From positions 2,431,249 through 2,495,248 of the forward strand of contig OZ241886.1 of assembly GCA_965203375.1 (NCBI GenBank): 64,000 nucleotides of DNA, read 5' to 3'. Positions 14,629 through 64,000 of this stretch are shown piece by piece. Source of the DNA: Candidatus Aldehydirespiratoraceae bacterium (lineage in GTDB: Bacteria; Actinomycetota; Acidimicrobiia; Acidimicrobiales; Aldehydirespiratoraceae). The notes under the pieces are model-generated. The model was not told where the DNA came from, searched no databases, and was given only the letters and a program-made list of their open reading frames with translations. The translations under genes and the position numbers were made by a program. Every line of letters starts with the position of its first letter. Position 1 is the stretch's first letter.

Positions 14629-17037
14629 TCAGCCGCCGGTCGCGTTGAGTTCGCTTTGCCATGTCTGTCCCCGATGGGTGAACTGGCCGGTGCTGATGCT
14701 GGCAATGTCGTAGTCGGGCAGCTTGACCTCCGCTGTGCATCTTCGGCCGTCGATGGATCCGCGCTCAATGAAGGCGAAGTCGAAATTGTCGAATCCGGAT
14801 TGTCGGCGGTGGTCGGGCAAATCCATTCTGTCGACTGGGAATACGTGTACGAAGAAATCGTCGCTGATATCACCGTTGTGGCATTGCTCTCGAATGTACA
14901 TCAAGGTTCTATCGCTGGTGAGATAGACATCAAAGCGGCCGCGAACAGCCGCAGTTGTGGGGAGGTTGATGACTTGATCCGCCCGTTGGTGCAACTCGGC
15001 ATTGGCTACATGGTCAGGCCCGAAGAATCTCCCACCCCAGATAGGTCCTCCACTGCTGGACTGGCCGGTGCTGATGCTGGCAATATCATAATCAGGCAGA
15101 TCAAAAATCACAACATACCGCTCGGCATCCATAATAAGCCGATCGAGCGGAGTGAAGCCGTAAGATTCGTGATCCTGGCTGGAATCCACAGGGTGGACTA
15201 TCAAATCGATAGGGCTTGACAGCAGCAGCGGATTTTCTGTGCAGCGATTCCCTATATATATGAGTTTTCTGTCATCGGTGAGGTAGACGTCAAAATCACC
15301 CCGAACCGCTGGCCTACTCCTTTCAACAATTTTGTTTATGCGTTCCTCATATGCATGCCGATCATACAGGTACATCACCTGATTGTCCGGCGTCAACAAA
15401 CCTCGAGCATCGTTTAGCTTGGGCTGAAGAATGAAATCAACTCTGTACGAATTGATGCGACAATCACGGCTATCAAATATGAGGCCACTGCCATGCAGAT
15501 AATAGAACAAGCCGTCATACGGCCAGACATAAGGATACCAGTCCCAGCCGTGGGGGTCGTATATGGGGATATCAGGGCGAGTATAGACAAGAATATTCCT
15601 TCCGTCGGTGAACGAGCGTATCATTTCAATATCATCTGCTATCAACTCTTCTATGTCCATAAACTCGGCACTAGGATCTTCAACCTCAGCATAGGCCACC
15701 CTATAGCTAGAGGTCACAAACAACACAAATGCACCCACTGCACTTAGCGGTAACAACTCTTTACCTTTGCCCGACCATTTATATAATAACGACAGAATCA
15801 AAGTATAAAAAAACAAGACCGCACCTACATAATACAAACTTTCAAATCCGTACGGATCATGTTGATGAATATTATATCGCATTGGAATTGACCAGCAGAA
15901 CCCGGAAAGAACTGCGGTCAAAGCCAGCAAACGATGACGCCTGAGATGAACCGCCCCGACTACACACACCCCGACCATGCCGATTCCCGCCAATGCAGCC
16001 TGAGGCACCGTCCGACCCGAGCCAGACCATGAACCGAATGGCAAAGCGAAAGGGATTGCCAGATACGACAATCTCTCCAACTGTGAATAAAGAAACGCAT
16101 CCCACCGTATCCTATAATCATCTGCCAGCCACTCATCCACGCTCCGCAGGTCTATTCCGGTGCGTCTCAACGCGGAGTCGACCGACGGCAGGTTTGATAA
16201 TGCTAATTGATCGCCTGCCCTAAAGTTGAGGGCATAGTATTCATTGGCGATATTGTAGGTTAATATCAATATCCCGAACCCCAGGGCAACAAACCCTAGA
16301 GTAAAATAGCGGCTAGTCATCACTCTCGATAAATAGAGTGAGAGTGAAAATCCTTGAATCGTCTTTGCCTTCTGCGCTTGGATGATCTCCTTGGCCAAGC
16401 CGAGAAGCACGAAAGGCAATAGCAACGCCAATACATGCCAGCCCAACAACAAAGCAAGACAGGCCTTAACCACTAACTGCCGAAAACGGCCATCTTGGGA
16501 GAAGATCACCATGCCATGGAAGGTAAGGGCGAACCCGAAAAGGTCGGGCATAAGTTCTGGCATTGTCGCGGTAGAATATGTCAACACTGTAGAGGATGCA
16601 AACCCCAGTAGAACTGCCGTGGAAGCAATCCATCGGTTTGAGATAAGCCGACATAGCGACCAATAGGCTAACACCACAGTACCGGCGAAGAACGCCACCA
16701 TAAGCATTTGAACCGCGGCGATACGAGTAGACAGGCCGTCACCCACAACCAAAGTGACTAACTTCATCAGCATATAGCCACCAGGAGGGAATCTATTATA
16801 TGCCACATAATCGATACCACCAGATACGTCGTAAATCTGATTAAAAAACCCCAGGAAATAGTGACTAGGGGAAAGATTGACGGCCACCGTTAAGTGCTGA
16901 TAATTCGAACGATATCCTTCGTTTAGAGTGCCAGTTATCCTGCCGAAGAAAAAAAACGTGGACAACCCGATCAACAACAAAACAAGCGGCAACGACCTCA
17001 GCCACAAGGCCGACCGATTATGACGCAAGAGAGCCAC
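14629..17037 (-). CDS. large polytopic membrane protein, paralog A (N-terminal ~10-12 TM + C-terminal duplicated soluble domain); possible GT-C-like glycosyltransferase
   Basis: low-GC gene; GTG start after GGTAGGAGA RBS; internal duplicated motifs LPDYDIASISTGQ and RG.FDVYLT.DR.L.YI; function not recognised. Confidence 0.65.
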   Translation of the reverse strand: MALLRHNRSALWLRSLPLVLLLIGLSTFFFFGRITGTLNEGYRSNYQHLTVAVNLSPSHYFLGFFNQIYDVSGGIDYVAYNRFPPGGYMLMKLVTLVVGDGLSTRIAAVQMLMVAFFAGTVVLAYWSLCRLISNRWIASTAVLLGFASSTVLTYSTATMPELMPDLFGFALTFHGMVIFSQDGRFRQLVVKACLALLLGWHVLALLLPFVLLGLAKEIIQAQKAKTIQGFSLSLYLSRVMTSRYFTLGFVALGFGILILTYNIANEYYALNFRAGDQLALSNLPSVDSALRRTGIDLRSVDEWLADDYRIRWDAFLYSQLERLSYLAIPFALPFGSWSGSGRTVPQAALAGIGMVGVCVVGAVHLRRHRLLALTAVLSGFCWSIPMRYNIHQHDPYGFESLYYVGAVLFFYTLILSLLYKWSGKGKELLPLSAVGAFVLFVTSSYRVAYAEVEDPSAEFMDIEELIADDIEMIRSFTDGRNILVYTRPDIPIYDPHGWDWYPYVWPYDGLFYYLHGSGLIFDSRDCRINSYRVDFILQPKLNDARGLLTPDNQVMYLYDRHAYEERINKIVERSRPAVRGDFDVYLTDDRKLIYIGNRCTENPLLLSSPIDLIVHPVDSSQDHESYGFTPLDRLIMDAERYVVIFDLPDYDIASISTGQSSSGGPIWGGRFFGPDHVANAELHQRADQVINLPTTAAVRGRFDVYLTSDRTLMYIREQCHNGDISDDFFVHVFPVDRMDLPDHRRQSGFDNFDFAFIERGSIDGRRCTAEVKLPDYDIASISTGQFTHRGQTWQSELNATGG

Positions 17038-17052
17038 TGATCTCCTACCTCA

Positions 17053-19500
17053 CTAGCCGCCAGTGGGGTTGAGTTCGCTGCGCCATATTTGTCCTTGATT
17101 GGTGAACTGTCCGGTGCTGATGCTGGCGATATCATAGTCGGGCAGTTCGATCTCCCCTACGCATCTTTGGCCGTCGATGGATCCGTATTCGGTGAAGGCG
17201 AAGTCGAAATTGTCGAATCCGGATTGTCGGCGATGGTCGGGCAGGTTCATTCTGTCAACTGGGAATATATGCACGAAGAAGTCGTCGCTGATATCACCGT
17301 TGTGGCATTGCTCTCGAATGTACATCAAGGTTCTATCGCTGGTGAGATAGACATCAAAGGGGCCGCGAACAGCCTCGATCCGTGAGAGACTGATGACTTG
17401 ATCCGCCCGTTGGTGCAACTCGGCATTGGCTACATGGTCGGGCCCGAAGAATCTCCCACCCCAGATAGGTCCTTCACTGCTGGACTGGCCGGTGCTGATG
17501 CTGGCAATATCATAATCGGGCAGATCAAAAATCACAACATACCGCTCGGCATCCATAATAAGTAGCTCGTGCATAGTGAAACCGTATAATTTGTAATCCT
17601 GACTGGAATCGGAGAGAACATTAGTATCCACAGGATAGACCATCAGATGAACATGATTTGACAGCAATAACGGGTTTATTGTGCAGCGATTTCCGACATA
17701 CAGGAGCTTTCGGTCATCGGTAAGATAGACATCAAAATCACCCCGAACCGCTGGCCCGATTTTTTCGACTATTTTATCTATACGTTCCTCATAAACATGC
17801 CGGTCATACAGGTACATCACCTGATTGTCCGGCGTCAACAAGCCTTGAGCGTCGTTCTGCTTAGGCTGAAGAATGAAATCCACTCTGTACGAACTGATGC
17901 GACAATCACGGCTATCAAATATAAGTCCACTGCCATGCAGATAATAGAACAACCCGCCATACGGCCAGATATAGGGATACCAATCCCAGCCGTGAGGGTC
18001 GTATATAGGGATATCAGGGCGAGTATAGACAAGAATATTCTTTCCATCACTTAACTGTCGGATAGTTTCAACATCATCTACTATCAAACTCTCTATATCA
18101 ATAAAAGCTTTGTCATTAGGACGCTCGATTTCAGCATAGGCTACCTTGTAGCTGGAGGTCACAAACAACACAAATGCACCTACTGCACTTAGCGGTAACA
18201 ACTTTTTACCTTTGCCCGACCATTTATATAATAACGACAGAATCAAGGTATAGAAAACCAAAATTACACCTATATAGTACAAACTCTCAAAAAAGTGCGG
18301 GCCAGTATTGTATCGCATAGGAATCGACCAGCAAAACCCGGAAAGAACCGCGGTCAGAACCAACAGACGATGACGCCTGAGGTGAACCGCCCCGATCACA
18401 CATACCCCGATCATGCTGATTCCCGCCGATGCAGCCCAAGGTATTGTTTTAACCAAGACCGTCCTATCCAAGCTAGACCATGAACCGAACGGCAAGGCAA
18501 AGGGAATCGCCAAGTACGACAATCTCTCCAACTGCGAATAAAGAAAAATATACCACTGCACCTGATATTCGCTGCTCAGCCATCTCCCTATTTCATCCGG
18601 GTTCCCTATGTCTGTTCCGGTGCGTCTCAACGCGGAGTCGATCGATGGCATATCTGATAATGCCAATTGATCGCCCGCCCTAAAGTTGAGGGCATAGTAT
18701 TCATTGGCGATATTGTAAGTTAATATCAATATCCCGAACCCCAGGGTAACAAACCCCAAGGTGAAATAGCGACTAGTCACCGCTCTCGATAAATAGAGTG
18801 ACAATGAGAATCCTTGAATCGTCTTTACCTTCCGAGCTTGGATGATTTCCTTAGTCAAGCCGAGAAGTACGAAAGGCAAGAGCAACGCCAATACATGCCA
18901 ACCCAACAACAAAGCAAGACATGCCTTAACAACCAACTGCCGGAAACGACCATCCTGAACGAAAATCACCATGCCATGAAAGGTGAGCGAAAACCCGAAA
19001 AGGTCGGGCATGATTTCCGGTATCGTCGCGGTAGAATATATCAACACCGTAGAGGATGAGAACCCCAACAAAACTGCCGTCGAAGCAATCCACCGGTTTG
19101 AGATAAGCCGACATAGCGACCAATAGGCCAACACCGCGGTTCCAGCGAAGAACGCCACCATAAGCATTTGAACAGCCGCGACACGAATAGACAAGCCATC
19201 ACCTACAACCAAAGTGATCAACTTCATCAGCATATAGCCACCAGGAGGAAATTTATTGTAGGCCGCATAATCGATACTACCAGATACGTCATAAACCTGA
19301 TTCAGGAACCCCAGGAAATGGTGACTGGGAGAAAGATTGATCGCCGCTGCCATATGTTGATGAGAAAGAAAATAGTTTTCGTTTAGGGTGCCAGTTATCC
19401 TGCCGAATAAAAAAATCGTGGACAACCCGATCAACAACAAGATGAGCGGCAACAACCTCAGCCTCGAAGCCAACCGACCTTGACCTAACGGAGCCACCAA
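17053..19500 (-). CDS. large polytopic membrane protein, paralog B (same architecture as A)
   Basis: TTG start after GGTAGGGGA RBS; same TM and C-terminal motif layout as A, with near-identical nucleotides over the 3'-terminal ~450 bp. Confidence 0.65.
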   Translation of the reverse strand: MVAPLGQGRLASRLRLLPLILLLIGLSTIFLFGRITGTLNENYFLSHQHMAAAINLSPSHHFLGFLNQVYDVSGSIDYAAYNKFPPGGYMLMKLITLVVGDGLSIRVAAVQMLMVAFFAGTAVLAYWSLCRLISNRWIASTAVLLGFSSSTVLIYSTATIPEIMPDLFGFSLTFHGMVIFVQDGRFRQLVVKACLALLLGWHVLALLLPFVLLGLTKEIIQARKVKTIQGFSLSLYLSRAVTSRYFTLGFVTLGFGILILTYNIANEYYALNFRAGDQLALSDMPSIDSALRRTGTDIGNPDEIGRWLSSEYQVQWYIFLYSQLERLSYLAIPFALPFGSWSSLDRTVLVKTIPWAASAGISMIGVCVIGAVHLRRHRLLVLTAVLSGFCWSIPMRYNTGPHFFESLYYIGVILVFYTLILSLLYKWSGKGKKLLPLSAVGAFVLFVTSSYKVAYAEIERPNDKAFIDIESLIVDDVETIRQLSDGKNILVYTRPDIPIYDPHGWDWYPYIWPYGGLFYYLHGSGLIFDSRDCRISSYRVDFILQPKQNDAQGLLTPDNQVMYLYDRHVYEERIDKIVEKIGPAVRGDFDVYLTDDRKLLYVGNRCTINPLLLSNHVHLMVYPVDTNVLSDSSQDYKLYGFTMHELLIMDAERYVVIFDLPDYDIASISTGQSSSEGPIWGGRFFGPDHVANAELHQRADQVISLSRIEAVRGPFDVYLTSDRTLMYIREQCHNGDISDDFFVHIFPVDRMNLPDHRRQSGFDNFDFAFTEYGSIDGQRCVGEIELPDYDIASISTGQFTNQGQIWRSELNPTGG

Positions 19501-54938: not shown

Positions 54939-56206
54939 CCGGACCCGGCACCCTCAACCACGTCGACACCGAAGCCGACTCGGCTGCCCTTGACCGCGGA
55001 GACAGCAGGGCCGACCCGACCGCCTTCCACCGCGCCGACGCCGGAGCCGACCCGGTCGCCTTCGATCACGTCGACGTCGGGGGCAAGCGCAGCCCCCACA
55101 ACGCCAAGTGGTCCCAATACGGCCCCGACGTTCTGCCGGCCTGGGTGGCCGAGCACGACTTCCGCCAGCCCGACTCGGTGATAGAGGCCATGCGGGCCAC
55201 GATCGACCGGGGCGAGCTGGGCTATCACCGCCGCGACTCTGAGGTGGCCGAGGCCTTCGGGGGCTGGGCCCGGTCCCGCTACGGCTGGGACCCCGACCCG
55301 GCGCTGGCCGCGGTGTGCGTGGACGCCCTCCAGGGCGTCGTCGCCGCGGTCACCGCACTGGCCGGCCCCGGCGAGGGGGTGATCCTGACGCCGCCCGTCT
55401 ACCACGTGTTCTGGCAGATCTGCCCCACCTCGGGGCGGCGGCCGGTGGAGTGGCCGATGCGGCAAGGCCCCGGCGGATGGCGCCTCGACCCCGACGACCT
55501 CGAAGCGGTGGCCGCGGCCGACCCCGGCGCCAAGGTGCTGTTGCTGTCGCACCCCCAGAACCCCACCGGCCGGGTGGCCGACCGAGACACCCTGGCCCGC
55601 ATCGTCGAGGTGGCCCGCGATCGCGGCCTCTACGTCGTGTCCGACGAGATTCACGGCGACATGGTGTACCCCCCGGCCGAATTCGTGCCCATGCTGTCGC
55701 TGGACGGCGCCGCCGACCGGGTGATAACCGTGACCTCGCCGGCCAAGACCTTCGCCCTGTCGGGGCTGCGCTGCGCCCTAACCGTCTTCGGCTGCCCGGA
55801 GCTGCGCCGCCGGGTGATCGAGGCCCACCCTCCCCTGCTGCTGGGCCACGCCTCCCGGACGGGCATCGACGCCTCGGTGGCGGCCTGGACCGAGGGCGGG
55901 GCCTGGGCCGACCGGCTGCTCGACCAGCTCCGGGCGAACCGCGACCATCTGGCCCGGCGGCTGGCGGCCGAGGCCCCGGCGGTGCGGATGCACCTGCCGG
56001 AGTCGACGTTTCTGGCCTGGCTGGACGTGTCGGCCTGCGGCCTGGGCCACCGGCCCGCCGCCGCCCTGCTGGAGCGGGCCCGGGTGGCGCTGCTGGAGGG
56101 AACCGAGTTCGGGACCGGCGGCGAAGGCTGCGTGCGGCTCAACTTCGGGACGTCTGAGGCGCTGCTAGACGCCATAATAGACCGGCTCATCCCCCATCTG
56201 CGATGA
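54935..56206 (+). CDS. MalY/PatB-family PLP-dependent C-S lyase / aminotransferase
   Basis: FDHVDVGGKRSPHNAKW (PatB-type N-terminus), PLP-lysine context; start uncertain, GTG 54935 is the only nearby candidate. Confidence 0.75.
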   Translation: MTGPGTLNHVDTEADSAALDRGDSRADPTAFHRADAGADPVAFDHVDVGGKRSPHNAKWSQYGPDVLPAWVAEHDFRQPDSVIEAMRATIDRGELGYHRRDSEVAEAFGGWARSRYGWDPDPALAAVCVDALQGVVAAVTALAGPGEGVILTPPVYHVFWQICPTSGRRPVEWPMRQGPGGWRLDPDDLEAVAAADPGAKVLLLSHPQNPTGRVADRDTLARIVEVARDRGLYVVSDEIHGDMVYPPAEFVPMLSLDGAADRVITVTSPAKTFALSGLRCALTVFGCPELRRRVIEAHPPLLLGHASRTGIDASVAAWTEGGAWADRLLDQLRANRDHLARRLAAEAPAVRMHLPESTFLAWLDVSACGLGHRPAAALLERARVALLEGTEFGTGGEGCVRLNFGTSEALLDAIIDRLIPHLR

Positions 56207-58341
56207 CCGACCACCAGGGCCGTAGGTTCGAAATGCTCTTGCAGCGGTGTCCGTGGCTGGCTTGCGCGCTGTTTGTGGGAGTCGCGCTCGTCCATAACGA
56301 TACCCCCACCCCGCAGGATACAGTCTGGACCGCCCAAGCGACGACACCGGCCGAGACGACGGTGCAAGACTCGGCTAGATTATTAGGATCTATTGCCCCA
56401 GTTGAGGACGATCAAGGTTCGGATAAGGGCTCGATAGTTTTGTCATGGCCTAATCTTGGTGATACTTCAATCACTCATTATCAGTATAGATTCAGGAGTG
56501 CATCAAAGGCAGGGTACGGTCCGTGGATAGATGTTCCCTTCAACTATGAGACCACCACTGTAAATACCATCACCAACCTTAAAACGGATATGGCCTATCA
56601 TATACGATATCGAGCCTGCAGGCCGACCAAATGCGGAATTGCGAGAGTTAAATGGCATGTAAGAGCTTGCAACACGGGCGAATGTAAAGCTAAAAAGCTT
56701 CAAATAAGGGTTCCAGTGTTTCCGTCGGATGTTCCCCCTCCACCTGGTTTCTGGTTCTTAGACGATGACGGCAGTATCCACGAGGGCGCCATTGAGGCAC
56801 TCGCGGCCGTGGGCGTCGCCCGAGGGTGCCGATACGACCTCTATTGCCCCGATGAGGAGGTGACCCGCGGCCAGTTCGCCGCGCTATTGGCGCGGGCCTT
56901 TCCCGGCTTGGTCCCCGACGACGCCGACGACTTCTTCGGCGACGACGACGGCAGCGTCCACGAGGCCGCCGTCAACGGCCTCGCCGCTGCGGGGATCGCG
57001 AGCGGCTGCGGGCCGGGCCGTTACTGCCCCGCCGAACCGATGACCCGAGCCCAGATGGCGACACTGCTGGCCCGGGCCCTCCCCGGTTTGGCTTCCCCCG
57101 ACCGGGATCATTTCTCCGATGACGACGGGACCGTCCATGAGGTCGCCATCAACGCGTTGGCCGAAAACGGCATCGTCTCCGGCTGCGGACCGGGCCGGTA
57201 CTGCCCCGACGATCCGATGCGGCGCGATCAGGCGGCGACGCTGCTGGCCCGGGCACTGGACCTGAAGCCGACCCAGCCTGAGCCGAGCCCGTGGCGGCTC
57301 GAGCCGGTGGCCGACGGCATCGACGGCGGCCCCACCGACCTCCAAGCCCCAGACGGCGACGACCGCTTGTTCCTGGCAACCAAACAGGGGGCGATCCTCA
57401 TAATCGCCGACGGCGCCCTATTGACCGAACCGTTTCTTGACTTGACCAGCGAAGTCATGTCCGCGGGCGGCGAACAAGGTCTGCTCGGGATGGCATTCCA
57501 CCCCCACTACGACACCAGCTTCAGGTTCTATGTCTTTTATACCGACTTAGACGGCCATAGCCAAATATATGAGTACCGGACCGACCCCGAGAACCCGAAC
57601 CAGGCCGACGCTTCCACCGCCCGTCACATCATCACCATCGAACAGACCAACGCTATACATATGGGCGGACAGCTTCAATTCGGCGCTGACGGCTACCTAT
57701 ACATAGCCGTCGGTGACGACCTGCTCTCTAACAACGGACAGAACCCCAGAACAGCGCCGGGAACCATCCTCCGCATAGATATAGACGACGTCGACTCCTA
57801 CTCGATTCCTGCCGACAACCCCTTCGCCGACGGCCAAGAAGGTCTACCCGAAGTCTGGGCCTACGGGCTGCGTAACCCCTGGCGATTCAGCTTCGACGGC
57901 TCCAACATCTACATCGCTGATGTAGGGCATAATGAACGAGAGGAAATCAACATCGTCGACACCTCAAGGGGTGGAATAAACTACGGCTGGCCCATCGTGG
58001 GTGATACCCAATGCATCAACTCAAACTCGAACTGCGCCGGACTGTTCACCCCTCAAATCGAATACTACCGCAACGATGGGTTTGCCGTCATCGGCGGCTA
58101 CGTATATCGAGGCACCGCCATAGGTGAGATGACCGGCCGATACTTCTACTCCGACATCAGCGGCCGATGGATCCGCACCTTCGCCTACCAAGACGGCGAG
58201 ATCACCGAGCACTATGACTGGTCCCAGGCGATCGAAGATCTCGGGCAGGTGTGGTCATTCGGCAAAGACGGCCACGGAGAGCTCTACGTGCTGACCAGCG
58301 ACGCCGTCTACAAGATCGCCCCCGCTAGCCTCAACCCATGA
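56203..58341 (+). CDS. surface protein paralog 1: TM/signal + FN3 + 3 SLH-like repeats + PQQ-type soluble sugar dehydrogenase beta-propeller
   Basis: ATG overlaps aminotransferase stop (ATGA); SLH-like FSDDDGS.HE.AI..LA..GI..GC....YCP....TR.Q.A.LLARA x3; propeller motifs GLLGMAFHP, GGQLQFGADGYLY, GLRNPWRFSFD, GGINYGWP. Confidence 0.75.
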   Translation: MTDHQGRRFEMLLQRCPWLACALFVGVALVHNDTPTPQDTVWTAQATTPAETTVQDSARLLGSIAPVEDDQGSDKGSIVLSWPNLGDTSITHYQYRFRSASKAGYGPWIDVPFNYETTTVNTITNLKTDMAYHIRYRACRPTKCGIARVKWHVRACNTGECKAKKLQIRVPVFPSDVPPPPGFWFLDDDGSIHEGAIEALAAVGVARGCRYDLYCPDEEVTRGQFAALLARAFPGLVPDDADDFFGDDDGSVHEAAVNGLAAAGIASGCGPGRYCPAEPMTRAQMATLLARALPGLASPDRDHFSDDDGTVHEVAINALAENGIVSGCGPGRYCPDDPMRRDQAATLLARALDLKPTQPEPSPWRLEPVADGIDGGPTDLQAPDGDDRLFLATKQGAILIIADGALLTEPFLDLTSEVMSAGGEQGLLGMAFHPHYDTSFRFYVFYTDLDGHSQIYEYRTDPENPNQADASTARHIITIEQTNAIHMGGQLQFGADGYLYIAVGDDLLSNNGQNPRTAPGTILRIDIDDVDSYSIPADNPFADGQEGLPEVWAYGLRNPWRFSFDGSNIYIADVGHNEREEINIVDTSRGGINYGWPIVGDTQCINSNSNCAGLFTPQIEYYRNDGFAVIGGYVYRGTAIGEMTGRYFYSDISGRWIRTFAYQDGEITEHYDWSQAIEDLGQVWSFGKDGHGELYVLTSDAVYKIAPASLNP

Positions 58342-60719
58342 CCTCCGATCGAACAGCCCACCCGTCTTGCACGCGCGTTGAAATCATGTGCATCGTTATC
58401 TGCTTCTTGATCTGTGCGCTAGTCGCCGGACTGTTACCACAAATGGTAATTCCCCGTACGGCTCATGCTCAGGCCGCGAACAATGCGGCGGTTCCAGGGG
58501 AACCGTGTGGGTTGTCGGCTGTGGGTAGGAACGGCTCGGGTTCTGGCGATGGTTCAATTGTCCTGTCATGGGATGATCCCGGCGACTCTTCAATCAATGG
58601 TTATCAGTACCGGCTGAGGACCCCTGATACGTCTGAAGAATACGGCTCGTGGATCGACATCCCTGGCAGCGGAGCCTCCACCACCGGCCACACCATCACC
58701 GGCCTTAACAACCACACGCGCTATAATGTGCGGCTGCGGGCTGGCAACACAGCCGGGTGGGGGGCCAGTCGGGTCTATTTTAGTGCTCGGACGACCACGG
58801 TTCCTGCCACCACTGCGACATATGTTCCAAGCCGGCCGGTCCTATTGGCCTCGTCTTTCTACGACGGCACCATTACCATTGCCTGGGATTGCCCGCGGAC
58901 GCAAGACCAAGTCCTCTGGTACCAATACCGATACAAGATCGGGCCCGGCATGTGGTCAGACTGGATTACATTGCCACCGACGGACCGCAGCCTTACCCTG
59001 GCCGTCCTGGACCGTGACACTCGGCACTACGTGGTTCTGCGAGCCGTCAACAGCGCGGGCTTCGGCAGCAGCATCTTAGCCTTTCCCCGGGTTCCCCCTC
59101 CACCTGGTTTTTGGTTCTCAGACGACGATGGGAGCATCCACGAGGGCGCTATTGAGGCCGTCGCCGCCGCGGGCGTCGCCCCGGGTTGCCAGCACAACCT
59201 CTATTGCCCTGCCGATTCGATGACCAGGGCCCAGTTCGCTTCCCTCTTGGTACGAGCCTTCCCCGATCTGATCCCCGAAGACGCCGAAAACTATTTCAGC
59301 GACGACGACGGGACCGTTGACGAGAGTGCCATCAACCGGCTGGCCGCCGCGGGGATAACCGCGGGCTGTGGGCCCCGGCGGTATTGCCCCGACGATTCGA
59401 TGACCCGGGCCCAGGCGGCGACGCTGCTGGCCCGGGCCCTCTCCGGCCTGGCTCCGCCCGACCGGGATCATTTCTCCGACGACGACGGGACCGTCCATGA
59501 GATCGCCATCAACGCGTTGGCCGAAAACGGCATCGTCTCCGACTGCGGGGCGGGCCGGTACTGCCCCGACGATCCGATGCGGCGCGACCAAGCGGCGACA
59601 CTGCTGGCCCGGGCCCTCAACCTGGAGCCGACCCAGCCGGCACCGAGCCCCTGGCAACTCGAGTCGGTGGCCGACGGCATCGACGGCGGCCCCACCGACC
59701 TTCAGGCCCCAGCCAGCGACGACCGCTTGTTCCTGGCAACCAAACAGGGGGCGATCCGCATAATCGCCGACGGCGCCTTATTGCTCGAACCGCTCCTCGA
59801 TTTGACCGGCAAAGTCAATTCCGAGACCGTCGAAGAAGGCCTGCTCGGGCTGGCCTTCCACCCCCACTACGCCACCAACCACAAGTTCTATGTCTTTTAT
59901 ACCGACTTAGACGGTCACAATCAGGTCTACGAGTACAGGACCGACCCCTCCGACCCCAACCGGGCCGACTCCTCCACCGCCCGCCACATCATCACCTTCA
60001 CCCAGGAATGCCTCTGGCACAATGGCGGACAGCTCCAATTCGGTGCCGACGGCTACCTATACATAGCCGTCGGCGACGGAGCATGCTTCAATCTTGGCAA
60101 CAAGCCAGAAACTTTGGACCAAACCCCCCACAACATCCTAGGGACCATCGTTCGCATAGATGTAGACAATGGTGACCCCTACTCGATTCCTGCCGATAAC
60201 CCCTTCGCCGACGGCCAAGATGGCCTGCCAGAAGTGTGGGCCTACGGACTGCGCAACCCCTGGAGATTCAGCTTCGACGGCCCCAACATTTACATCGCTG
60301 ATGTAGGGCACCACGAACGGGAGGAGATCAACATCGCCGACGTCTCAAGGGGCGGAATAAACTACGGCTGGCCCATCGTGGGTGATACCCAATGCATCAA
60401 CTCGAACTCGAACTGCGCCGGACTGTTCACCCCTCAAATCGAATACTATCGCAACGATGGGTTCGTCGTCATCGGCGGCTACGTATATCGAGGAACTGCC
60501 ATAGGTGAGATGGTCGGCCGATACTTCTACGCCGACTACACCGGATGGATACGCACCTTCGCCTACCAAGACGGCGAGATCACCGAGCACTATGACTGGT
60601 CCCAGGCGATCGAAGATCTCGGGCAGGTGTGGTCATTCGGCAAAGACGGCCACGGGGAGCTCTACGTGCTGACCAGCGACGCCGTCTACAAGATCGCCCC
60701 CACTAGCCTCAACCCATGA
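58338..60719 (+). CDS. surface protein paralog 2: signal peptide + 2 FN3 + 3 SLH-like + PQQ-type dehydrogenase propeller
   Basis: ATGA overlap with paralog 1 stop; signal peptide ending AHAQA; same domain order. Confidence 0.75.
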   Translation: MTSDRTAHPSCTRVEIMCIVICFLICALVAGLLPQMVIPRTAHAQAANNAAVPGEPCGLSAVGRNGSGSGDGSIVLSWDDPGDSSINGYQYRLRTPDTSEEYGSWIDIPGSGASTTGHTITGLNNHTRYNVRLRAGNTAGWGASRVYFSARTTTVPATTATYVPSRPVLLASSFYDGTITIAWDCPRTQDQVLWYQYRYKIGPGMWSDWITLPPTDRSLTLAVLDRDTRHYVVLRAVNSAGFGSSILAFPRVPPPPGFWFSDDDGSIHEGAIEAVAAAGVAPGCQHNLYCPADSMTRAQFASLLVRAFPDLIPEDAENYFSDDDGTVDESAINRLAAAGITAGCGPRRYCPDDSMTRAQAATLLARALSGLAPPDRDHFSDDDGTVHEIAINALAENGIVSDCGAGRYCPDDPMRRDQAATLLARALNLEPTQPAPSPWQLESVADGIDGGPTDLQAPASDDRLFLATKQGAIRIIADGALLLEPLLDLTGKVNSETVEEGLLGLAFHPHYATNHKFYVFYTDLDGHNQVYEYRTDPSDPNRADSSTARHIITFTQECLWHNGGQLQFGADGYLYIAVGDGACFNLGNKPETLDQTPHNILGTIVRIDVDNGDPYSIPADNPFADGQDGLPEVWAYGLRNPWRFSFDGPNIYIADVGHHEREEINIADVSRGGINYGWPIVGDTQCINSNSNCAGLFTPQIEYYRNDGFVVIGGYVYRGTAIGEMVGRYFYADYTGWIRTFAYQDGEITEHYDWSQAIEDLGQVWSFGKDGHGELYVLTSDAVYKIAPTSLNP

Positions 60720-60751
60720 CCTCCGATCAACCTGCTCATCCCCCACCTGCA

Positions 60752-62868
60752 ATGACCGACCACCAGAGCCGTAAATTCAAAATGCTCTTGCTGAGATGTC
60801 CGTGGCTGACTTGCGCACTGTTTGCGGGAATCGCGTTCGTCCATAACAATACCCCCCCCCGCAGGATGCGGTCCAGACCGCTCAAGCGGCGACACCGTCC
60901 AAGACGATGACACAAGATTCGGCTAAATTAGTGGGATCAGTTGCCTCAGTTGAGGATGATCAAGGTTCGAATAAGGGCTCGATAGTTTTGTCATGGTCTA
61001 ATCCTGGTAATCCTTCAATCACTCATTATCAGTATCAATTCAGAAGTGCATCAGAGGTAGGATACGGTCCGTGGATTGATATTCCTGACAGCAGAGCGTC
61101 CACTACTGAATATACCATCACCGGCCTTAGAACCAATGCAATATATAATGTAAGACTTAGAGCCTGTAAGAGATCTGTATGTTGGGATTTCAGTAGTTTA
61201 TGGCATGTAAGAGTCTGTGAAATGACCGAATCGACCAAATGTGAAGTTACTGCGATAGGCTACCCAGTGATCGCGCCAACTGTTCCCCCTCCACCTGGTT
61301 TCTGGTTCTCAGACGATGACGGCAGCCGCCATGAGGGGGCCATTGAAGCTCTCGCGGCCGCGAGAATCGCATCTGGGTGCGGACGGCACCTTTATTGCCC
61401 CGCTGAGGAGACGACCCGGGGCCAGTTCGCCTCGCTGTTGGCGCGGGCCTTCCCCGACTTGGTCCCCGACTACACCGGAGACTTCTTCGGCGACGACAAC
61501 GGCAGCGTCCACGAGGCCGACATCAACAGGCTGGCCGCAGTGGAGATCGCGGCCGGCTGCGGGCCGAGCCGGTTCTGCCCCGACGACCCGATACGGCGCG
61601 ACCAAGCGGCGACGCTGCTGGCCCGGGCCCTCCCCGGCCTGGCTCCGCCCGAACGGGATCACTTCTCCGACGACGACGGCAGCATCCACGAGATCGCCGT
61701 CAACGCCATGGCCGAAAACGGCATCCTCGCCGGCTGCGGGCCGAGCCGGTTCTGCCCCGACGACCCGATACGGCGCGACCAGGCCGCGACCCTGCTCGCC
61801 CGGGTCCTCAACCTGAATCGGGCCGAACCTCAACTAAGCCTGTGGCGGCTCGAGCTAGTGGCCGACGGGATTGTCGGCGGCGTCACCGACCTGCAGGCCC
61901 CCATCGGCGACGACCGGGCATTTCTGGCCACCAGACGAGGGATGATCCGTGTGATGGCCGACGGCGCCCTTTTACCCGGGCCATTCCTCGACTTGACCAG
62001 TAAAATCTCAGGGGGCCTGTTCGGGCTGGCCTTCCACCCCCGCTACGACACCAACGGCAAGTTCTACGTCTTCTATATTGCCTTAGACGGCAACATCCGA
62101 ATATACGAGTACCGGGCCGACTCCGAGAACCCCAACCGGGCCGATCCTTCGACCGCCCGCCACATCGTCACCATAGAGCGAGACACAAGTACTCACCACG
62201 GAGGGCAGCTCCAATTCGGTCCTGATGGCTACCTATACATCGGCATCGGTGACAACAACAACCCCGAAAGCAGTCAGAATTTGCAAACCGCGCATGGGAC
62301 CATCCTCCGCATAGATGTAGACAACGGTGAACCCTACTCCATCCCTGCCGATAACCCCTTCGCCGACGGCCAAGATGGCCTACCTGAAGTGTGGGCCTAC
62401 GGGCTGCGCCATCCTTGGCGATTCAGCTTCGACGGCCCCAATATCTACATCGCCGACGTGGGAGATGTCCACATTGAGGAGATCAACATCGCCAAGGCTT
62501 CCCAGGGTGGAATAAACTACGGCTCGCCGGTCATGGACGGCTCCATATGCGTCAGTCCAACCTCAAACTGCGCCGGGCTGTTCACTCCTCAAATCGAATA
62601 CTACCATGCCCAGGGTTTTGCCGTCATCGGCGGCTACGTATACCGAGGCACTGCCTTACCTGAAATGGTCGGCCGATACTTCTACTCCGACTACACCGGC
62701 GCATGGATCCGCACATTCCTCTACAACGACGACGGCGAGGTGACAGAGCACTACGACTGGTCCTCAGCAGTCGAAAACGTCGCGCAGATGCAGTCATTCG
62801 GCAAAGACGGCCACGGAGAGCTCTACGTGCTGACCGGCTACGCCGTCTACAAGATCGTCCCCCGCTAG
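60752..62868 (+). pseudogene. surface protein paralog 3, interrupted by a frameshift at a C9 homopolymer (60852-60860)
   Basis: N-terminal TM segment (60752-60860) and body (ATG 60907 onward) lie in different frames; a C10 tract would restore a full-length reading frame homologous to paralog 1. Confidence 0.6.
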
Positions 62869-62877
62869 CCTCAGCCC

Positions 62878-64000
62878 ATGATCTCCGATCGCCAGGCCCA
62901 CCCGTCCTGCAATCGCCTTCAAATGGGTCGGGGCATAGAAATCCCGGCCGGTTCGGCCAGCATTAGGTCCTGGCCAGCCTCTGGTATTGTCAAGATAGCC
63001 CACGGTGCATGCGATGATCGGGAACGGCGCAAGACCCATATGCCTCGTTTGACTACTTTACTGGTCTGTGCGCTGATCGCTGGACTATTGTCACAAGTGA
63101 CAACTCCCGTAGTAGTCCATGCTCAGGCGGCGAGCAATGCGGCGATTCCAAGAGAACCGTGCATGGTGTCTGCAACCACTGAAGACGTAGTTTCACGGCC
63201 AAGACGACCGGTCCTATTGGCCTCGTCTTTCTACAGCGGCACCATTACTGTCGCATGGGACTGCCCGCGGGCGCAAGACCAAGTCCTCTGGTACCAATAC
63301 CGCTACAAGATCGGGCCTGGCATGTCGTCAGGCTGGATTAAATTGCCACCGACGGCTCGTAGCCTGACCCTGACCGTCCTGGACCGTGACACCCGGCACT
63401 ACGTGGTTCTGCGAGCCGTCAACAGCGCGGGTCCAGGCAACAGTGTCTTAGCCTACCCCCGGGTTCCCCCTCCACCTGGTTTCTGGTTCTCCGACGACGG
63501 CGGGAGCGTCTACGAGGGCGCTATTGAGGCCGTCGCCGCCGCGGGCATCGCCCCCGGGTGCCGACACAACCTCTATTGCCCCGCCGATCCGATGACCAGA
63601 GGCCAGTTCGCTTCCCTCCTGGTACGAGCCTTCCCCGACCTGATCCCCGACGACGCCGAAAACTACTTCTCCGACGACAACGGGACCGTCCACGAGATCG
63701 CCATCAACCGGCTGGCCTCCGCGGGTATAACCGCGGGCTGCAAGCCGGGCCGGTACTGCCCCGCCGATCCGATGCGGCGCGACCAAGCGGCGACGCTGCT
63801 GGCCCGGGCCCTCCCCGGCCTGATTCCGCCCAACGGGGATCATTTCTCCGACGACGACGGGACCGTCCACGAGATCGCCATCAACGTGTTGGCTGAAAAC
63901 GGCATCGTCTCCGGCTGCGGGCCGGGCCGGTACTGCCCCGCCGATCCGATGCGGCGCGATCAGGCGGCGGCGCTGCTGGCCCGGGCCCTCAACCTGGAGA
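62878..64000 (+). CDS. surface protein paralog 4 (paralog-2-like, one FN3), 3'-partial at window edge
   Basis: no stop in frame from 62878 to the window end; alternative start ATG 63040 (MPRLTTLLVCALIAGLL...AQAA signal peptide). Confidence 0.6.
   Translation, partial: MISDRQAHPSCNRLQMGRGIEIPAGSASIRSWPASGIVKIAHGACDDRERRKTHMPRLTTLLVCALIAGLLSQVTTPVVVHAQAASNAAIPREPCMVSATTEDVVSRPRRPVLLASSFYSGTITVAWDCPRAQDQVLWYQYRYKIGPGMSSGWIKLPPTARSLTLTVLDRDTRHYVVLRAVNSAGPGNSVLAYPRVPPPPGFWFSDDGGSVYEGAIEAVAAAGIAPGCRHNLYCPADPMTRGQFASLLVRAFPDLIPDDAENYFSDDNGTVHEIAINRLASAGITAGCKPGRYCPADPMRRDQAATLLARALPGLIPPNGDHFSDDDGTVHEIAINVLAENGIVSGCGPGRYCPADPMRRDQAAALLARALNLE

What the first reader, a model, noticed from the sequence alone, without database searches (positions are those of the whole stretch)
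60852..60860. Poly-C9 tract splits paralog 3 between its TM leader and mature body: candidate phase-variable switch or pseudogene
The N-terminal TM segment (MTDHQSRKFKMLLLRCPWLTCALFAGIAFVHNNTPP) and the rest of the protein are in different frames. Comparison with paralog 1 (acccccacccc at the same place) shows a single extra C (C10) would give one continuous ORF. A 9-mer homopolymer at the signal/mature junction of a surface protein is the classic geometry of slipped-strand contingency loci. In a GC-rich actinobacterium this is rare enough to look at.
Basis: seen in the sequence. Interest (0 to 1): 0.65.

Follow-up and report, generated by a model that had tools for sequence, protein, structure and literature searches.

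The report
Slippery poly-C tract silences surface-protein gene
A run of nine C's sits exactly where the export signal of a cell-surface protein gene joins its body and knocks the gene out of frame; sister strains carry ten C's (gene intact) and a fifth copy of the gene carries 9, 10 or 11 C's in different strains, which fits a classic slipped-strand on/off switch, here seen in an uncultured, probably sponge-associated actinobacterium.

Summary
C9 at 60852-60860 is the only G/C run of 8 or more in the window. It separates a signal-peptide-like leader ORF (60752-60910) from an otherwise intact 669-codon body (60859-62868). C10 or C7 restores a 705-aa protein: leader, FN3, three SLH repeats, GSDH/HHIP-like beta-propeller.

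The orthologous tract is C10 and in frame in five other haplotypes. Across 8.8 kb, the tract is the only indel between the window and two sister genomes 99.0-99.7% identical to it.

A fifth paralog just beyond the window has a homologous leader and tract. It reads C9 (off), C11 (off) or C10 (on) in different assemblies. Some alleles have interrupted, fixed-on tracts. Off and on alleles show the same purifying selection (dN/dS about 0.3).

Best reading: a hypermutable homopolymer gives strain-level on/off variation in a tandem surface-protein family. The geometry matches the Bifidobacterium breve pilin G-tract switch. That makes it a new member of a known kind.

Not shown: length heterogeneity within one population, or reversibility. 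A homopolymer miscall in this one assembly cannot be excluded (about 0.25).

The parts
60852..60860 (+). C9 homopolymer tract, the frameshift site. In the C10 state it encodes T-P-P-P (ACC CCC CCC CCG).
   Evidence: Orthologs read C10.
60752..60910 (+). Paralog 3 leader ORF in the OFF (C9) state: a signal-peptide-like N-terminus, then the out-of-frame tail RRMRSRPLKRRHRPRR and a TGA stop at 60908-60910. The start is placed at 60752 by homology with the ATG of paralog 1. An in-frame ATG at 60716 overlaps the stop of paralog 2.
   Evidence: The hydrophobic core is WLTCALFAGIAFV. Leader dN/dS is 0.30-0.44 against orthologs.
60859..62868 (+). Paralog 3 body reading frame: 669 open codons from the last CCG of the tract to the stop. 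The first ATG (60907) overlaps the leader ORF's TGA, forming ATGA.
   Evidence: It contains protein P0131 exactly.
60970..61170 (+). Fibronectin type III domain of paralog 3 (residues 74-140 of the repaired protein). It lies upstream of the start chosen by automatic gene callers.
   Evidence: Pfam PF00041, E=7e-9. Linker plus FN3 dN/dS is 0.25-0.6.
61300..61850 (+). Three S-layer-homology (SLH) repeats of paralog 3. Coordinates are approximate.
   Evidence: Pfam PF00395, E=9e-10. The repeated motif DDDGS.HE.AI..LA...I..GC is visible in the translation.
61900..62835 (+). Glucose/sorbosone-dehydrogenase-type (HHIP-like) beta-propeller of paralog 3.
   Evidence: Pfam PF07995, E=7e-37. Best PDB sequence match is HHIP 3ho3, E=4e-31.
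56203..58341 (+). Paralog 1, intact at 712 aa. It has a homologous leader and an interrupted tract CCCCCACCCC at 56303-56312 (T-P-T-P).
58338..60719 (+). Paralog 2, intact at 793 aa. It has a classical AHA|QA signal peptide and no tract. Its start overlaps the stop of paralog 1, and its stop overlaps the ATG at 60716.
63040..64000 (+). Paralog 4. It runs off the end of the window, has a classical VHA|QA signal peptide and no tract at the junction.
   Evidence: The full gene is seen in L001/L013.

Best explanation
The tract is a slippage-prone homopolymer inside the coding sequence. It sits between the Sec-type leader and the mature part of a cell-wall-anchored surface protein (FN3, three SLH repeats, beta-propeller). 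With 10 C's, or 7 or 13, the leader and body are one ORF and the protein can be exported. With 9 or 11 C's, translation stops 16-22 codons after the tract and the body is left without an export signal.

In the genome behind this window, paralog 3 is in the OFF (C9) state, one slipped C away from the ON state found in its sister strains. At least two members of this tandem, copy-number-variable family (paralog 3, and paralog 5 just beyond the window) carry such tracts and are found ON or OFF in different strains. The family therefore behaves like a small set of contingency (phase-variable) loci that change which surface proteins a lineage displays.

What is shown: the frame anatomy, tract-length polymorphism between close haplotypes, bodies that are otherwise intact, and purifying selection.

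What is inferred: replication slippage as the cause, reversibility, heterogeneity within a population, surface location, and any adaptive value.
For: 1. Frame anatomy and in-silico repair.

2. The orthologous tract is C10 and in frame in five other haplotypes:
- L001/L002, from a 3.66-Mb circular contig and an 827-kb contig;
- L004 and L005;
- L019;
- L020, where the first, paralog-1-type gene also has an uninterrupted C10 in frame.

3. Over 8.8 kb, the window differs from L002 by 23 substitutions and from L001 by 94. The only indel in both comparisons is in the tract. The window is therefore a distinct haplotype, and the tract is the indel hot spot.

4. Paralog 5, about 8 kb past the end of the window, has a homologous leader (MTD...LLICALLAVAGVVVNSDTPPP-Q) and a tract at the same junction:
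- C9 OFF in L013/L014;
- C11 OFF in L016, which is on the same contig where paralog 3 is C10 ON;
- C10 ON in the 83%-identical L017;
- interrupted CCCCCCTCCC, ON, in L018.
Overall, three tract lengths are seen, and 3 of 10 independent uninterrupted haplotypes are OFF.

5. Every OFF allele has a fully open 669-codon body. dN/dS is about 0.3 for ON-ON and ON-OFF pairs alike. The leader and the linker plus FN3 region are also under purifying selection. The OFF states are therefore recent or transient, not old decay.

6. All three G/C runs of 8 or more in the window plus 11 kb of sister-genome extension lie in genes of this family.

7. Elsewhere in the same genes, the conserved PPPP motif is always encoded with mixed codons (CCC CCT CCA CCT).

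8. The product has surface-protein architecture: hydrophobic leader, FN3, SLH and a propeller.

9. There is a precedent with the same geometry in another host-associated actinobacterium. In Bifidobacterium breve pilin genes, the Sec-signal ORF and the body ORF are separated by a G-tract, and tens of percent of the population differ in tract length (PMC9187656).

10. The actinobacterial NucS mismatch repair system does not correct indels (PMC7015689). This is background only, and nothing was tested in this organism.
Against: - No reads are available, so heterogeneity within a sample, switching rate and reversibility are untested.
- Six of the seven P1/P3-type uninterrupted haplotypes are C10. 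The tract is stable enough to be inherited unchanged across lineages about 5% apart in protein sequence.
- The window's C9 is a single observation from one assembly of unknown platform.
- The two C9 calls for paralog 5 (L013, L014) share an identical 2.8-kb haplotype. They count as one lineage.
- CCC is the commonest proline codon here, at 43%. A C10 encoding TPPP could arise without any selection for mutability.
- Interrupted alleles exist, which shows the tract is dispensable.
- Expression and surface location are inferred from domains only.
Confidence: 0.55

Rival explanations
1. The C9 in this window is a homopolymer-length miscall in the consensus of a long-read metagenome assembly. The real genome has C10 and an intact gene.
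For: - The difference from both sister genomes is exactly one base in a 9-10-nt homopolymer, the commonest residual error of long-read consensus.
- Sister contig names such as ctg22244_238x_c suggest long-read metagenome assemblies. This is my inference from the naming.
- All other P3-type alleles read C10.
- The body has no other lesion.
Against: - The same type of assembly calls C10 at this very site in L001 and L002, and calls C9 reproducibly at paralog 5 in two assemblies.
- A short-read-style scaffold shows C11 at paralog 5. Length variation in this tract family is therefore not confined to one platform.
- No other indel appears in the 8.8 kb shared with the sister genomes.
- Five suspicious ORF pairs elsewhere in the window are ordinary adjacent genes, not split genes. 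The assembly is not riddled with frameshifts.
Confidence: 0.25
2. This is a genuine but non-adaptive loss-of-function mutation. The tract is only a proline-linker coding accident that mutates often, and redundant paralogs are being lost one by one, so this is incipient pseudogenisation and not a maintained switch.
For: - The family is redundant and its copy number varies among strains: 1, 2 or 4 tandem copies, with paralog 5 present or absent.
- CCC is the preferred proline codon.
- Interrupted alleles and leaders without a tract exist.
- Most alleles are simply C10.
Against: - No OFF allele carries a second lesion.
- dN/dS of OFF alleles is no higher than that of ON alleles.
- Uninterrupted tracts persist in leaders whose genes have diverged to dS 0.45-0.9.
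- Two different OFF lengths occur at paralog 5 in haplotypes only about 0.5% apart.
- Physically, a C9 tract reverts about as easily as it arose.
Confidence: 0.15
3. This is a recoding site. The C9 allele is the functional form and is decoded by programmed -1 ribosomal frameshifting on C_CCC_CCC or by transcriptional slippage.
For: - C_CCC_CCC formally fits the X_XXY_YYZ slippery pattern.
- A small hairpin (GCGGUCCAGACCGC) starts 7 nt after the tract; the 100-nt fold has z = -2.1.
- Polymerase slippage on long homopolymers is known for A/T runs (PMC1088944, listed).
Against: - Recoding sites conserve the out-of-frame arrangement. Here, relatives are mostly in frame (C10), and OFF alleles need opposite shifts (C9 needs -1, C11 needs +1).
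- The hairpin is not conserved in paralog 1 or paralog 5.
- There is no Rfam match.
Confidence: 0.03

Closest known systems
Bifidobacterium breve UCC2003 sortase-dependent pilin genes bbr_0113a/b and bbr_1889a/b: intragenic G-tract replication-slippage ON/OFF switch (PMC9187656)
   Same: - Both are host-associated, GC-rich Actinomycetota.
- A short upstream ORF encodes the Sec signal and a long downstream ORF encodes the mature surface protein, separated by a G/C homopolymer of about 9-11 nt.
- A change of one base fuses the two ORFs.
- Automatic annotation starts the body at an internal codon that lacks a signal peptide.
- Equivalent tracts occur in several loci and strains.
   Different: - The protein family and anchoring differ: FN3, SLH and a beta-propeller here, with no LPXTG pilin and no adjacent sortase.
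- Here the commonest state is ON (C10), whereas the B. breve reference is OFF.
- Heterogeneity within a population and phenotype were measured in B. breve and not here.
Mycobacterium tuberculosis glpK 7C homopolymer frameshift phase variation (bioRxiv 10.1101/717272), and M. bovis frd homopolymeric-tract variants (PMC12263978)
   Same: A poly-C or homopolymeric tract inside a coding sequence of an actinobacterium is gained and lost reversibly by slippage. Frameshifted and intact alleles are both found among close isolates.
   Different: Those are cytoplasmic metabolic genes, with a shorter tract in mid-gene. They are not a signal/mature junction of a multi-copy surface family. This comparison rests on the titles and abstracts listed.
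Poly-G/C contingency loci of Neisseria, Haemophilus, Campylobacter and Bordetella (e.g. PMC5084427, PMC3786947, PMC1891110)
   Same: A homopolymer lies in the 5' part of the ORF of a surface or host-interaction gene. Several such loci per genome give combinatorial ON/OFF states. Tract-length polymorphism among strains is the standard in-silico criterion.
   Different: Those are Gram-negative pathogens with MutS/L repair. Here the organism is an uncultured, probably mutualistic, Acidimicrobiia-like bacterium. Only two tracts have been seen so far, and no experimental switching rate exists.
GSDH / PQQ-dependent soluble sugar dehydrogenase and Hedgehog-interacting-protein (HHIP) beta-propellers (Pfam PF07995; PDB 3ho3, 3a9g, 2ism, 2g8s)
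   Same: The C-terminal 310 residues match PF07995 at E=7e-37 and HHIP at E=4e-31.
   Different: Here the propeller is fused to a leader, FN3 and three SLH repeats. PQQ binding and catalytic residues were not examined. This comparison concerns the gene product, not the switch.

Membership tests
Simple-sequence-repeat (homopolymer) translational phase-variable gene / contingency locus | An uninterrupted homopolymer, usually 7-8 nt or longer, lies inside the ORF near its 5' end | tested here: met
   C9 lies at codons 34-37 of a 705-codon gene.
Simple-sequence-repeat (homopolymer) translational phase-variable gene / contingency locus | Changes in tract length switch between a full-length ORF and early termination | tested here: met
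   C7 and C10 give 704 and 705 aa. C8, C9 and C11 stop after 52-58 codons.
Simple-sequence-repeat (homopolymer) translational phase-variable gene / contingency locus | Tract length is polymorphic among closely related genomes while the flanks are conserved | tested here: met
   Paralog 3 is C9 in the window and C10 in five other haplotypes. Paralog 5 is C9, C10 or C11. The tract is the only indel in 8.8 kb.
Simple-sequence-repeat (homopolymer) translational phase-variable gene / contingency locus | High-frequency, reversible length heterogeneity within one clonal population or sample | not testable with these tools
   No reads are available; only consensus assemblies.
Simple-sequence-repeat (homopolymer) translational phase-variable gene / contingency locus | OFF alleles are otherwise intact and under the same constraint as ON alleles, so they are not decaying pseudogenes | tested here: met
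   Bodies of 669 codons are open in every OFF allele. dN/dS is about 0.3 for ON-ON and ON-OFF pairs.
Simple-sequence-repeat (homopolymer) translational phase-variable gene / contingency locus | The product is surface-exposed or involved in host or phage interaction | tested here: inconclusive
   The domain architecture (hydrophobic leader, FN3, SLH, propeller) fits a wall-anchored surface protein. Localisation has not been shown.
Bifidobacterium-type signal-ORF | G/C-tract | pilin-body switch (PMC9187656) | The Sec-signal ORF and the mature-protein ORF are separated by a G/C homopolymer | tested here: met
   compared with the paper's description.
Bifidobacterium-type signal-ORF | G/C-tract | pilin-body switch (PMC9187656) | The product is an LPXTG pilin in a sortase-dependent pilus cluster | tested here: not met
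   The product ends ...VYKIVPR and matches Pfam FN3, SLH and GSDH only. The neighbours are paralogs and aminotransferases, with no sortase. It works like that switch but is not a member of that gene family.
Programmed frameshift / transcriptional-slippage recoding site | The out-of-frame arrangement is conserved in orthologs | tested here: not met
   Most orthologs are in frame (C10 or interrupted). OFF alleles need opposite shifts.
Programmed frameshift / transcriptional-slippage recoding site | A conserved stimulatory RNA structure lies downstream | tested here: not met
   There is a weak hairpin with z = -2.1 in paralog 3 only. It is absent from paralogs 1 and 5, and there is no Rfam match.
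Glucose/sorbosone dehydrogenase (PF07995) beta-propeller proteins | Match to the family profile above the curated threshold | tested here: met
   127.8 bits against a cut-off of 25. PDB homologs are HHIP and soluble sugar dehydrogenases.
Glucose/sorbosone dehydrogenase (PF07995) beta-propeller proteins | PQQ and Ca2+ binding residues and the catalytic residues are present, i.e. enzymatic function | not tested
   Not examined. It does not affect the switch question.

The most novel reading that the evidence does not exclude
An uncultured Acidimicrobiia-like, probably sponge-associated symbiont may run a small 'phasome'. Several tandem and dispersed paralogs of an SLH-anchored, eukaryote-like FN3 plus HHIP-like-propeller surface protein each carry a poly-C tract at the signal/mature junction and switch independently. 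In one genome, paralog 3 is ON while paralog 5 is OFF. This would give combinatorial surface variation in a mutualist, for example to evade host phagocytosis or phage adsorption. It would be the first contingency-locus system described for this class or for sponge symbionts. A full-text search found no report of phase-variable genes in sponge symbionts.
Probability: 0.4. Interest if true: 0.65.

Novelty: new member of a known kind. Interest (0 to 1): 0.5.

Why it matters
Homopolymer-driven on/off switching of surface proteins is textbook biology for mucosal pathogens, and it has recently been shown for a gut commensal actinobacterium. Finding the same geometry in an uncultured, high-GC marine symbiont lineage would extend contingency loci to mutualists that cannot be grown. 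The family concerned combines fibronectin-III and Hedgehog-interacting-protein-like domains, and FN3 is one of the 'eukaryote-like' domains enriched in sponge-associated Actinobacteriota (PMC11706023).

It also points to these proteins as targets of fluctuating selection by host or phage. The idea can be tested directly by counting tract lengths in reads of existing metagenomes.

There is a practical lesson too. Automatic gene callers start these genes about 155-170 codons too late, dropping the leader and FN3 domain whether the tract is ON or OFF. Such switches are therefore invisible in current annotations.

Tried and rejected
- Looking up the window's own product P0131 to find the source record returned 'not on record'. 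The source sample and sequencing platform remain unknown.
- Two pattern scans of the JGI metagenome collection for the leader plus tract found nothing. The patterns do match the known loci, and a JGI contig with the tract exists (L019). That collection evidently does not hold these contigs.
- A protein search with the leader and linker, meant to find called ON or OFF leader ORFs in 5.8 billion proteins, returned no hits. Gene callers rarely call this region.
- The scan of GTDB species representatives returned only distant relatives at 38-58% identity over full matches (one partial match reached 73%). None has a tract at the junction, and none is the species itself. The C11 in L008 and the C8 in L011 are intergenic and unrelated to the leader junction.
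- My first heuristic scan for other homopolymer frameshifts in the window was too noisy to use. I replaced it with a Pfam check of five suspicious ORF pairs, all of which are ordinary neighbouring genes.
- Programmed frameshifting or a known RNA element is rejected (and the ortholog frames).
- Body expression from the internal ATG at 60907 was considered. It overlaps the OFF-frame stop (ATGA), so termination-reinitiation is conceivable. The product would lack an export signal, though, and paralog 5 has no such arrangement. I treat this as coincidence.
- Lipoprotein processing of the conserved Cys in the leader was considered. The residues before the Cys (W-L-T-C, L-L-I-C) do not fit a lipobox, by my reading of the sequence.
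Full report
**Observation**

Window 60852-60860 is a run of nine C's. Upstream, ORF 60716-60910 encodes MTSDQPAHPPPA-MTDHQSRKFKMLLLRCPWLTCALFAGIAFVHNNTPP. It then runs out of frame into RRMRSRPLKRRHRPRR and stops at TGA 60908-60910. Downstream, another frame is open from 60859 to 62868 (669 codons; first ATG at 60907).

A DNA alignment with paralog 1 (56203-58341) is about 90% identical, and its single gap is at the tract: ACCCCCACCCCG in paralog 1 against ACCCCC-CCCCG in paralog 3. In silico, C10 or C7 gives one ORF of 705 or 704 aa, while C8, C9 and C11 terminate after 52-58 codons. Every factual element of the finding is therefore correct.

The run itself is not improbable from composition. 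Markov models expect about 0.7-1.2 C-runs of 9 or more per 64 kb. It is nevertheless the only G/C run of 8 or more in the window.

**What the gene is**

The repaired protein has these parts:
- an N-terminal basic region and a hydrophobic core of about 13 residues;
- a Pro/Thr/Ala-rich linker;
- a fibronectin-III domain;
- three SLH repeats;
- a PF07995 (glucose/sorbosone dehydrogenase) beta-propeller.

By sequence, the closest solved structures to the propeller are vertebrate Hedgehog-interacting protein (E=4e-31), ahead of bacterial soluble sugar dehydrogenases.

Four such genes lie head to tail, with overlapping stop and start codons:
- P1, 56203-58341;
- P2, 58338-60719;
- P3;
- P4, from 63040.

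The block sits between two aminotransferase genes and has lower GC (0.56-0.66) than its surroundings (0.72-0.75). P2 and P4 have classical AXA signal peptides and no tract. P1 has the same leader as P3, with an A interrupting the run.

Automatic gene calls in public assemblies start P1 and P3 about 155-170 codons too late, at internal codons, whether or not the tract is in frame. That start would remove the leader and the FN3 domain from an SLH protein. The skipped region matches Pfam FN3 and evolves with dN/dS of 0.25-0.6. The leader ATG is therefore the real start.

**Source organism**

The window's body ORF contains protein P0131 exactly. P0131 is recorded on a 3,744,278-bp NCBI/ENA contig, but that record could not be retrieved.

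The nearest named genomes carrying family members are metagenome-assembled Acidimicrobiia, including a Candidatus Poriferisodalis. Poriferisodalaceae is a sponge-symbiont family in which FN3 proteins are enriched (PMC11706023).

Many related contigs come from samples labelled PANK22-1. I take these to be sponge metagenomes, but that is from memory and unverified.

**Comparative evidence at paralog 3**

Contigs that encode proteins at least 91% identical to the P3 body were fetched. The tract states are:

| Locus | Source | Tract | State |
|---|---|---|---|
| L001/L013 | 3.66-Mb circular contig | C10 | in frame |
| L002/L014 | 827-kb contig | C10 | in frame |
| L004 | — | C10 | in frame |
| L005 | — | C10 | in frame |
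| L019 | — | C10 | in frame |
| L020, both of its two paralogs | — | C10 | in frame |
| L006 | — | interrupted, CCCTCCCCCC | in frame |
| L003 | — | none; unrelated AT-rich signal peptide | — |

Over the 8.8 kb shared with L001 and L002, the window shows 94 and 23 substitutions respectively. The only indel in both comparisons is the missing C. The window is therefore a distinct haplotype, 99.0-99.7% identical to its sister genomes, and its only length difference from them is in the tract.

**A second tract**

About 8 kb beyond the end of the window, the sister genomes carry a fifth paralog (P5). Its leader is homologous: MTDSNKMHIGNGMDQWFRWLLQRLPLLICALLAVAGVVVNSDTPP... Its tract, ATA-C(n)-GCAG, sits at the same junction.

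| Locus | Tract | State |
|---|---|---|
| L013 and L014 | C9 | leader stops after TPPRR*; C10 would fuse |
| L016 (same contig on which P3 is C10) | C11 | OFF |
| L017 (83%-identical ortholog) | C10 | intact, 707 aa |
| L018 | interrupted, CCCCCCTCCC | ON |

L013 and L014 are identical over 2.8 kb at this locus, so they count as one haplotype confirmed by two assemblies.

Counting independent uninterrupted haplotypes across both loci gives 7 at C10 (ON), 2 at C9 (OFF) and 1 at C11 (OFF). In one genome, P3 is ON while P5 is OFF.

**Are OFF alleles decaying?**

No. Every OFF allele has a fully open 669-codon body. Nei-Gojobori dN/dS is 0.28-0.34 for ON-ON and ON-OFF comparisons at both loci.

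All three G/C runs of 8 or more found in the window plus 11 kb of extension lie in this family. They are the P3 junction, the P5 junction, and a constant in-frame G8 in P4.

The conserved PPPP motif before the SLH repeats is always encoded CCC CCT CCA CCT, while the junction TPPP is encoded ACC CCC CCC CCG. This contrast is only suggestive, because CCC is the preferred proline codon here.

**Mechanism**

The simplest account is replication slippage on the homopolymer. The ancestral slot is ten nucleotides long (ACC CCC NCC CCG). An A-to-C change turns the interrupted P1-type run into C10, and the gain or loss of one C then turns the gene off.

In the OFF state, the short leader peptide is made and the body lacks an export signal. 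Effects on the downstream P4 (polarity) are possible but untested.

This geometry is the one demonstrated experimentally for two pilin genes of Bifidobacterium breve. There, the Sec-signal ORF and the body ORF are separated by a G-tract, tracts of 8-11 nt recur in pilus loci of several strains, and tens of percent of cells differ in tract length (PMC9187656).

Poly-C frameshift phase variation is also reported for M. tuberculosis glpK (10.1101/717272). The actinobacterial NucS repair system does not correct indels (PMC7015689). Whether this organism uses NucS was not examined.

**Rivals**

1. *Consensus miscall in this one assembly.* This cannot be excluded without reads. It is the classic long-read error, and all other P3-type alleles are C10. 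Several points count against it:
   - comparable assemblies call C10 at this site and call C9 reproducibly at P5;
   - a short-read-style scaffold gives C11 at P5;
   - there is no other indel in 8.8 kb;
   - five suspicious ORF pairs elsewhere in the window are normal genes.
2. *Non-adaptive mutational decay in a redundant family whose copy number varies.* This is compatible with much of the data. It is disfavoured by the absence of second lesions, by equal constraint on ON and OFF alleles, and by two different OFF lengths in near-identical haplotypes.
3. *Recoding (programmed frameshift or transcriptional slippage).* This is rejected. Orthologs are mostly in frame, OFF alleles need opposite shifts, the small downstream hairpin is not conserved, and Rfam finds nothing.

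**Verdict**

The frameshift at a poly-C tract is real in the sequence, and the tract is a demonstrated hot spot of length change in this gene family. The phase-variation reading is the best supported (about 0.55), but it lacks the decisive read-level test. An assembly error for this single call stands at about 0.25.

The mechanism is of a well-known kind, with a very close actinobacterial precedent, so this is a new member of a known kind. The interest lies in the host lineage (an uncultured, probably sponge-associated Acidimicrobiia-like bacterium), in the eukaryote-like FN3/HHIP-like surface family involved, and in the multi-paralog arrangement.

Noticed in passing
L013 17872-20015 (tract 17999-18007); L014 18007-18015; L016 2566-2576; L017 364-373: A fifth paralog lies about 8 kb beyond the end of the window. 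It has a homologous leader and a poly-C tract at the same junction: C9 (OFF), C11 (OFF) or C10 (ON) in different assemblies. It is absent altogether from strain L020.
   Followed up: yes
window 56200-64000, compared with loci L003, L006, L020: The block of paralogs between the two aminotransferase genes has lower GC (0.56-0.66 against 0.72-0.75). Its copy number varies among strains: 1, 2 or 4 tandem genes. Leaders are mosaic between paralogs; for example, L005 has a P1-like leader on a P3-like body. Within each gene, the leader and FN3 part is much more AT-rich than the SLH and propeller part.
   Followed up: partly
window 14629-19500 (minus strand): A low-GC island (0.45-0.50 in a 0.72 background) holds two tandem ORFs of 802 and 815 aa. 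Neither has a Pfam or PADLOC match.
   Followed up: partly
window 61900-62835 (propeller of paralog 3): The best match by sequence among solved structures is vertebrate Hedgehog-interacting protein (3ho3, E=4e-31). It is clearly ahead of bacterial PQQ sugar dehydrogenases (3a9g at 1e-20, 2g8s at 5e-15).
   Followed up: no
window 60907-60910: The stop codon of the OFF-frame leader ORF (TGA) overlaps the first ATG of the body frame, forming ATGA. This is the geometry of termination-reinitiation coupling, and the same ATGA overlap joins the aminotransferase to P1, P1 to P2, and P2 to the ATG at 60716. It could yield a leaderless cytoplasmic body protein in the OFF state, but it is probably coincidental.
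   Followed up: no
L001 9462-9469 (paralog 4 body, beyond the end of the window): A G8 run inside the propeller coding region (GTG GGG GGG GAC, encoding V-G-G-D) has constant length in four assemblies (L001, L002, L004, L015). It would serve as an internal control homopolymer for read-level tests.
   Followed up: partly
L001, L004, L013 gene tables, compared with window 56203 and 60752: Public gene calls start paralogs 1, 3, 4 and 5 at internal codons, 41-188 codons downstream of the evident start. This drops the signal peptide and, in paralogs 1, 3 and 5, the FN3 domain as well. Protein databases therefore hold N-terminally truncated versions of this family.
   Followed up: yes
window 62878-63039: The spacer between P3 and P4 holds a short remnant, ATGATCTCCGATCGCCAGGCCCACCCGTCCTGCAATCGC..., which is homologous to the MTSDQPAHPPPA junction sequence found upstream of P3. 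It looks like a relic of the duplication unit.
   Followed up: no
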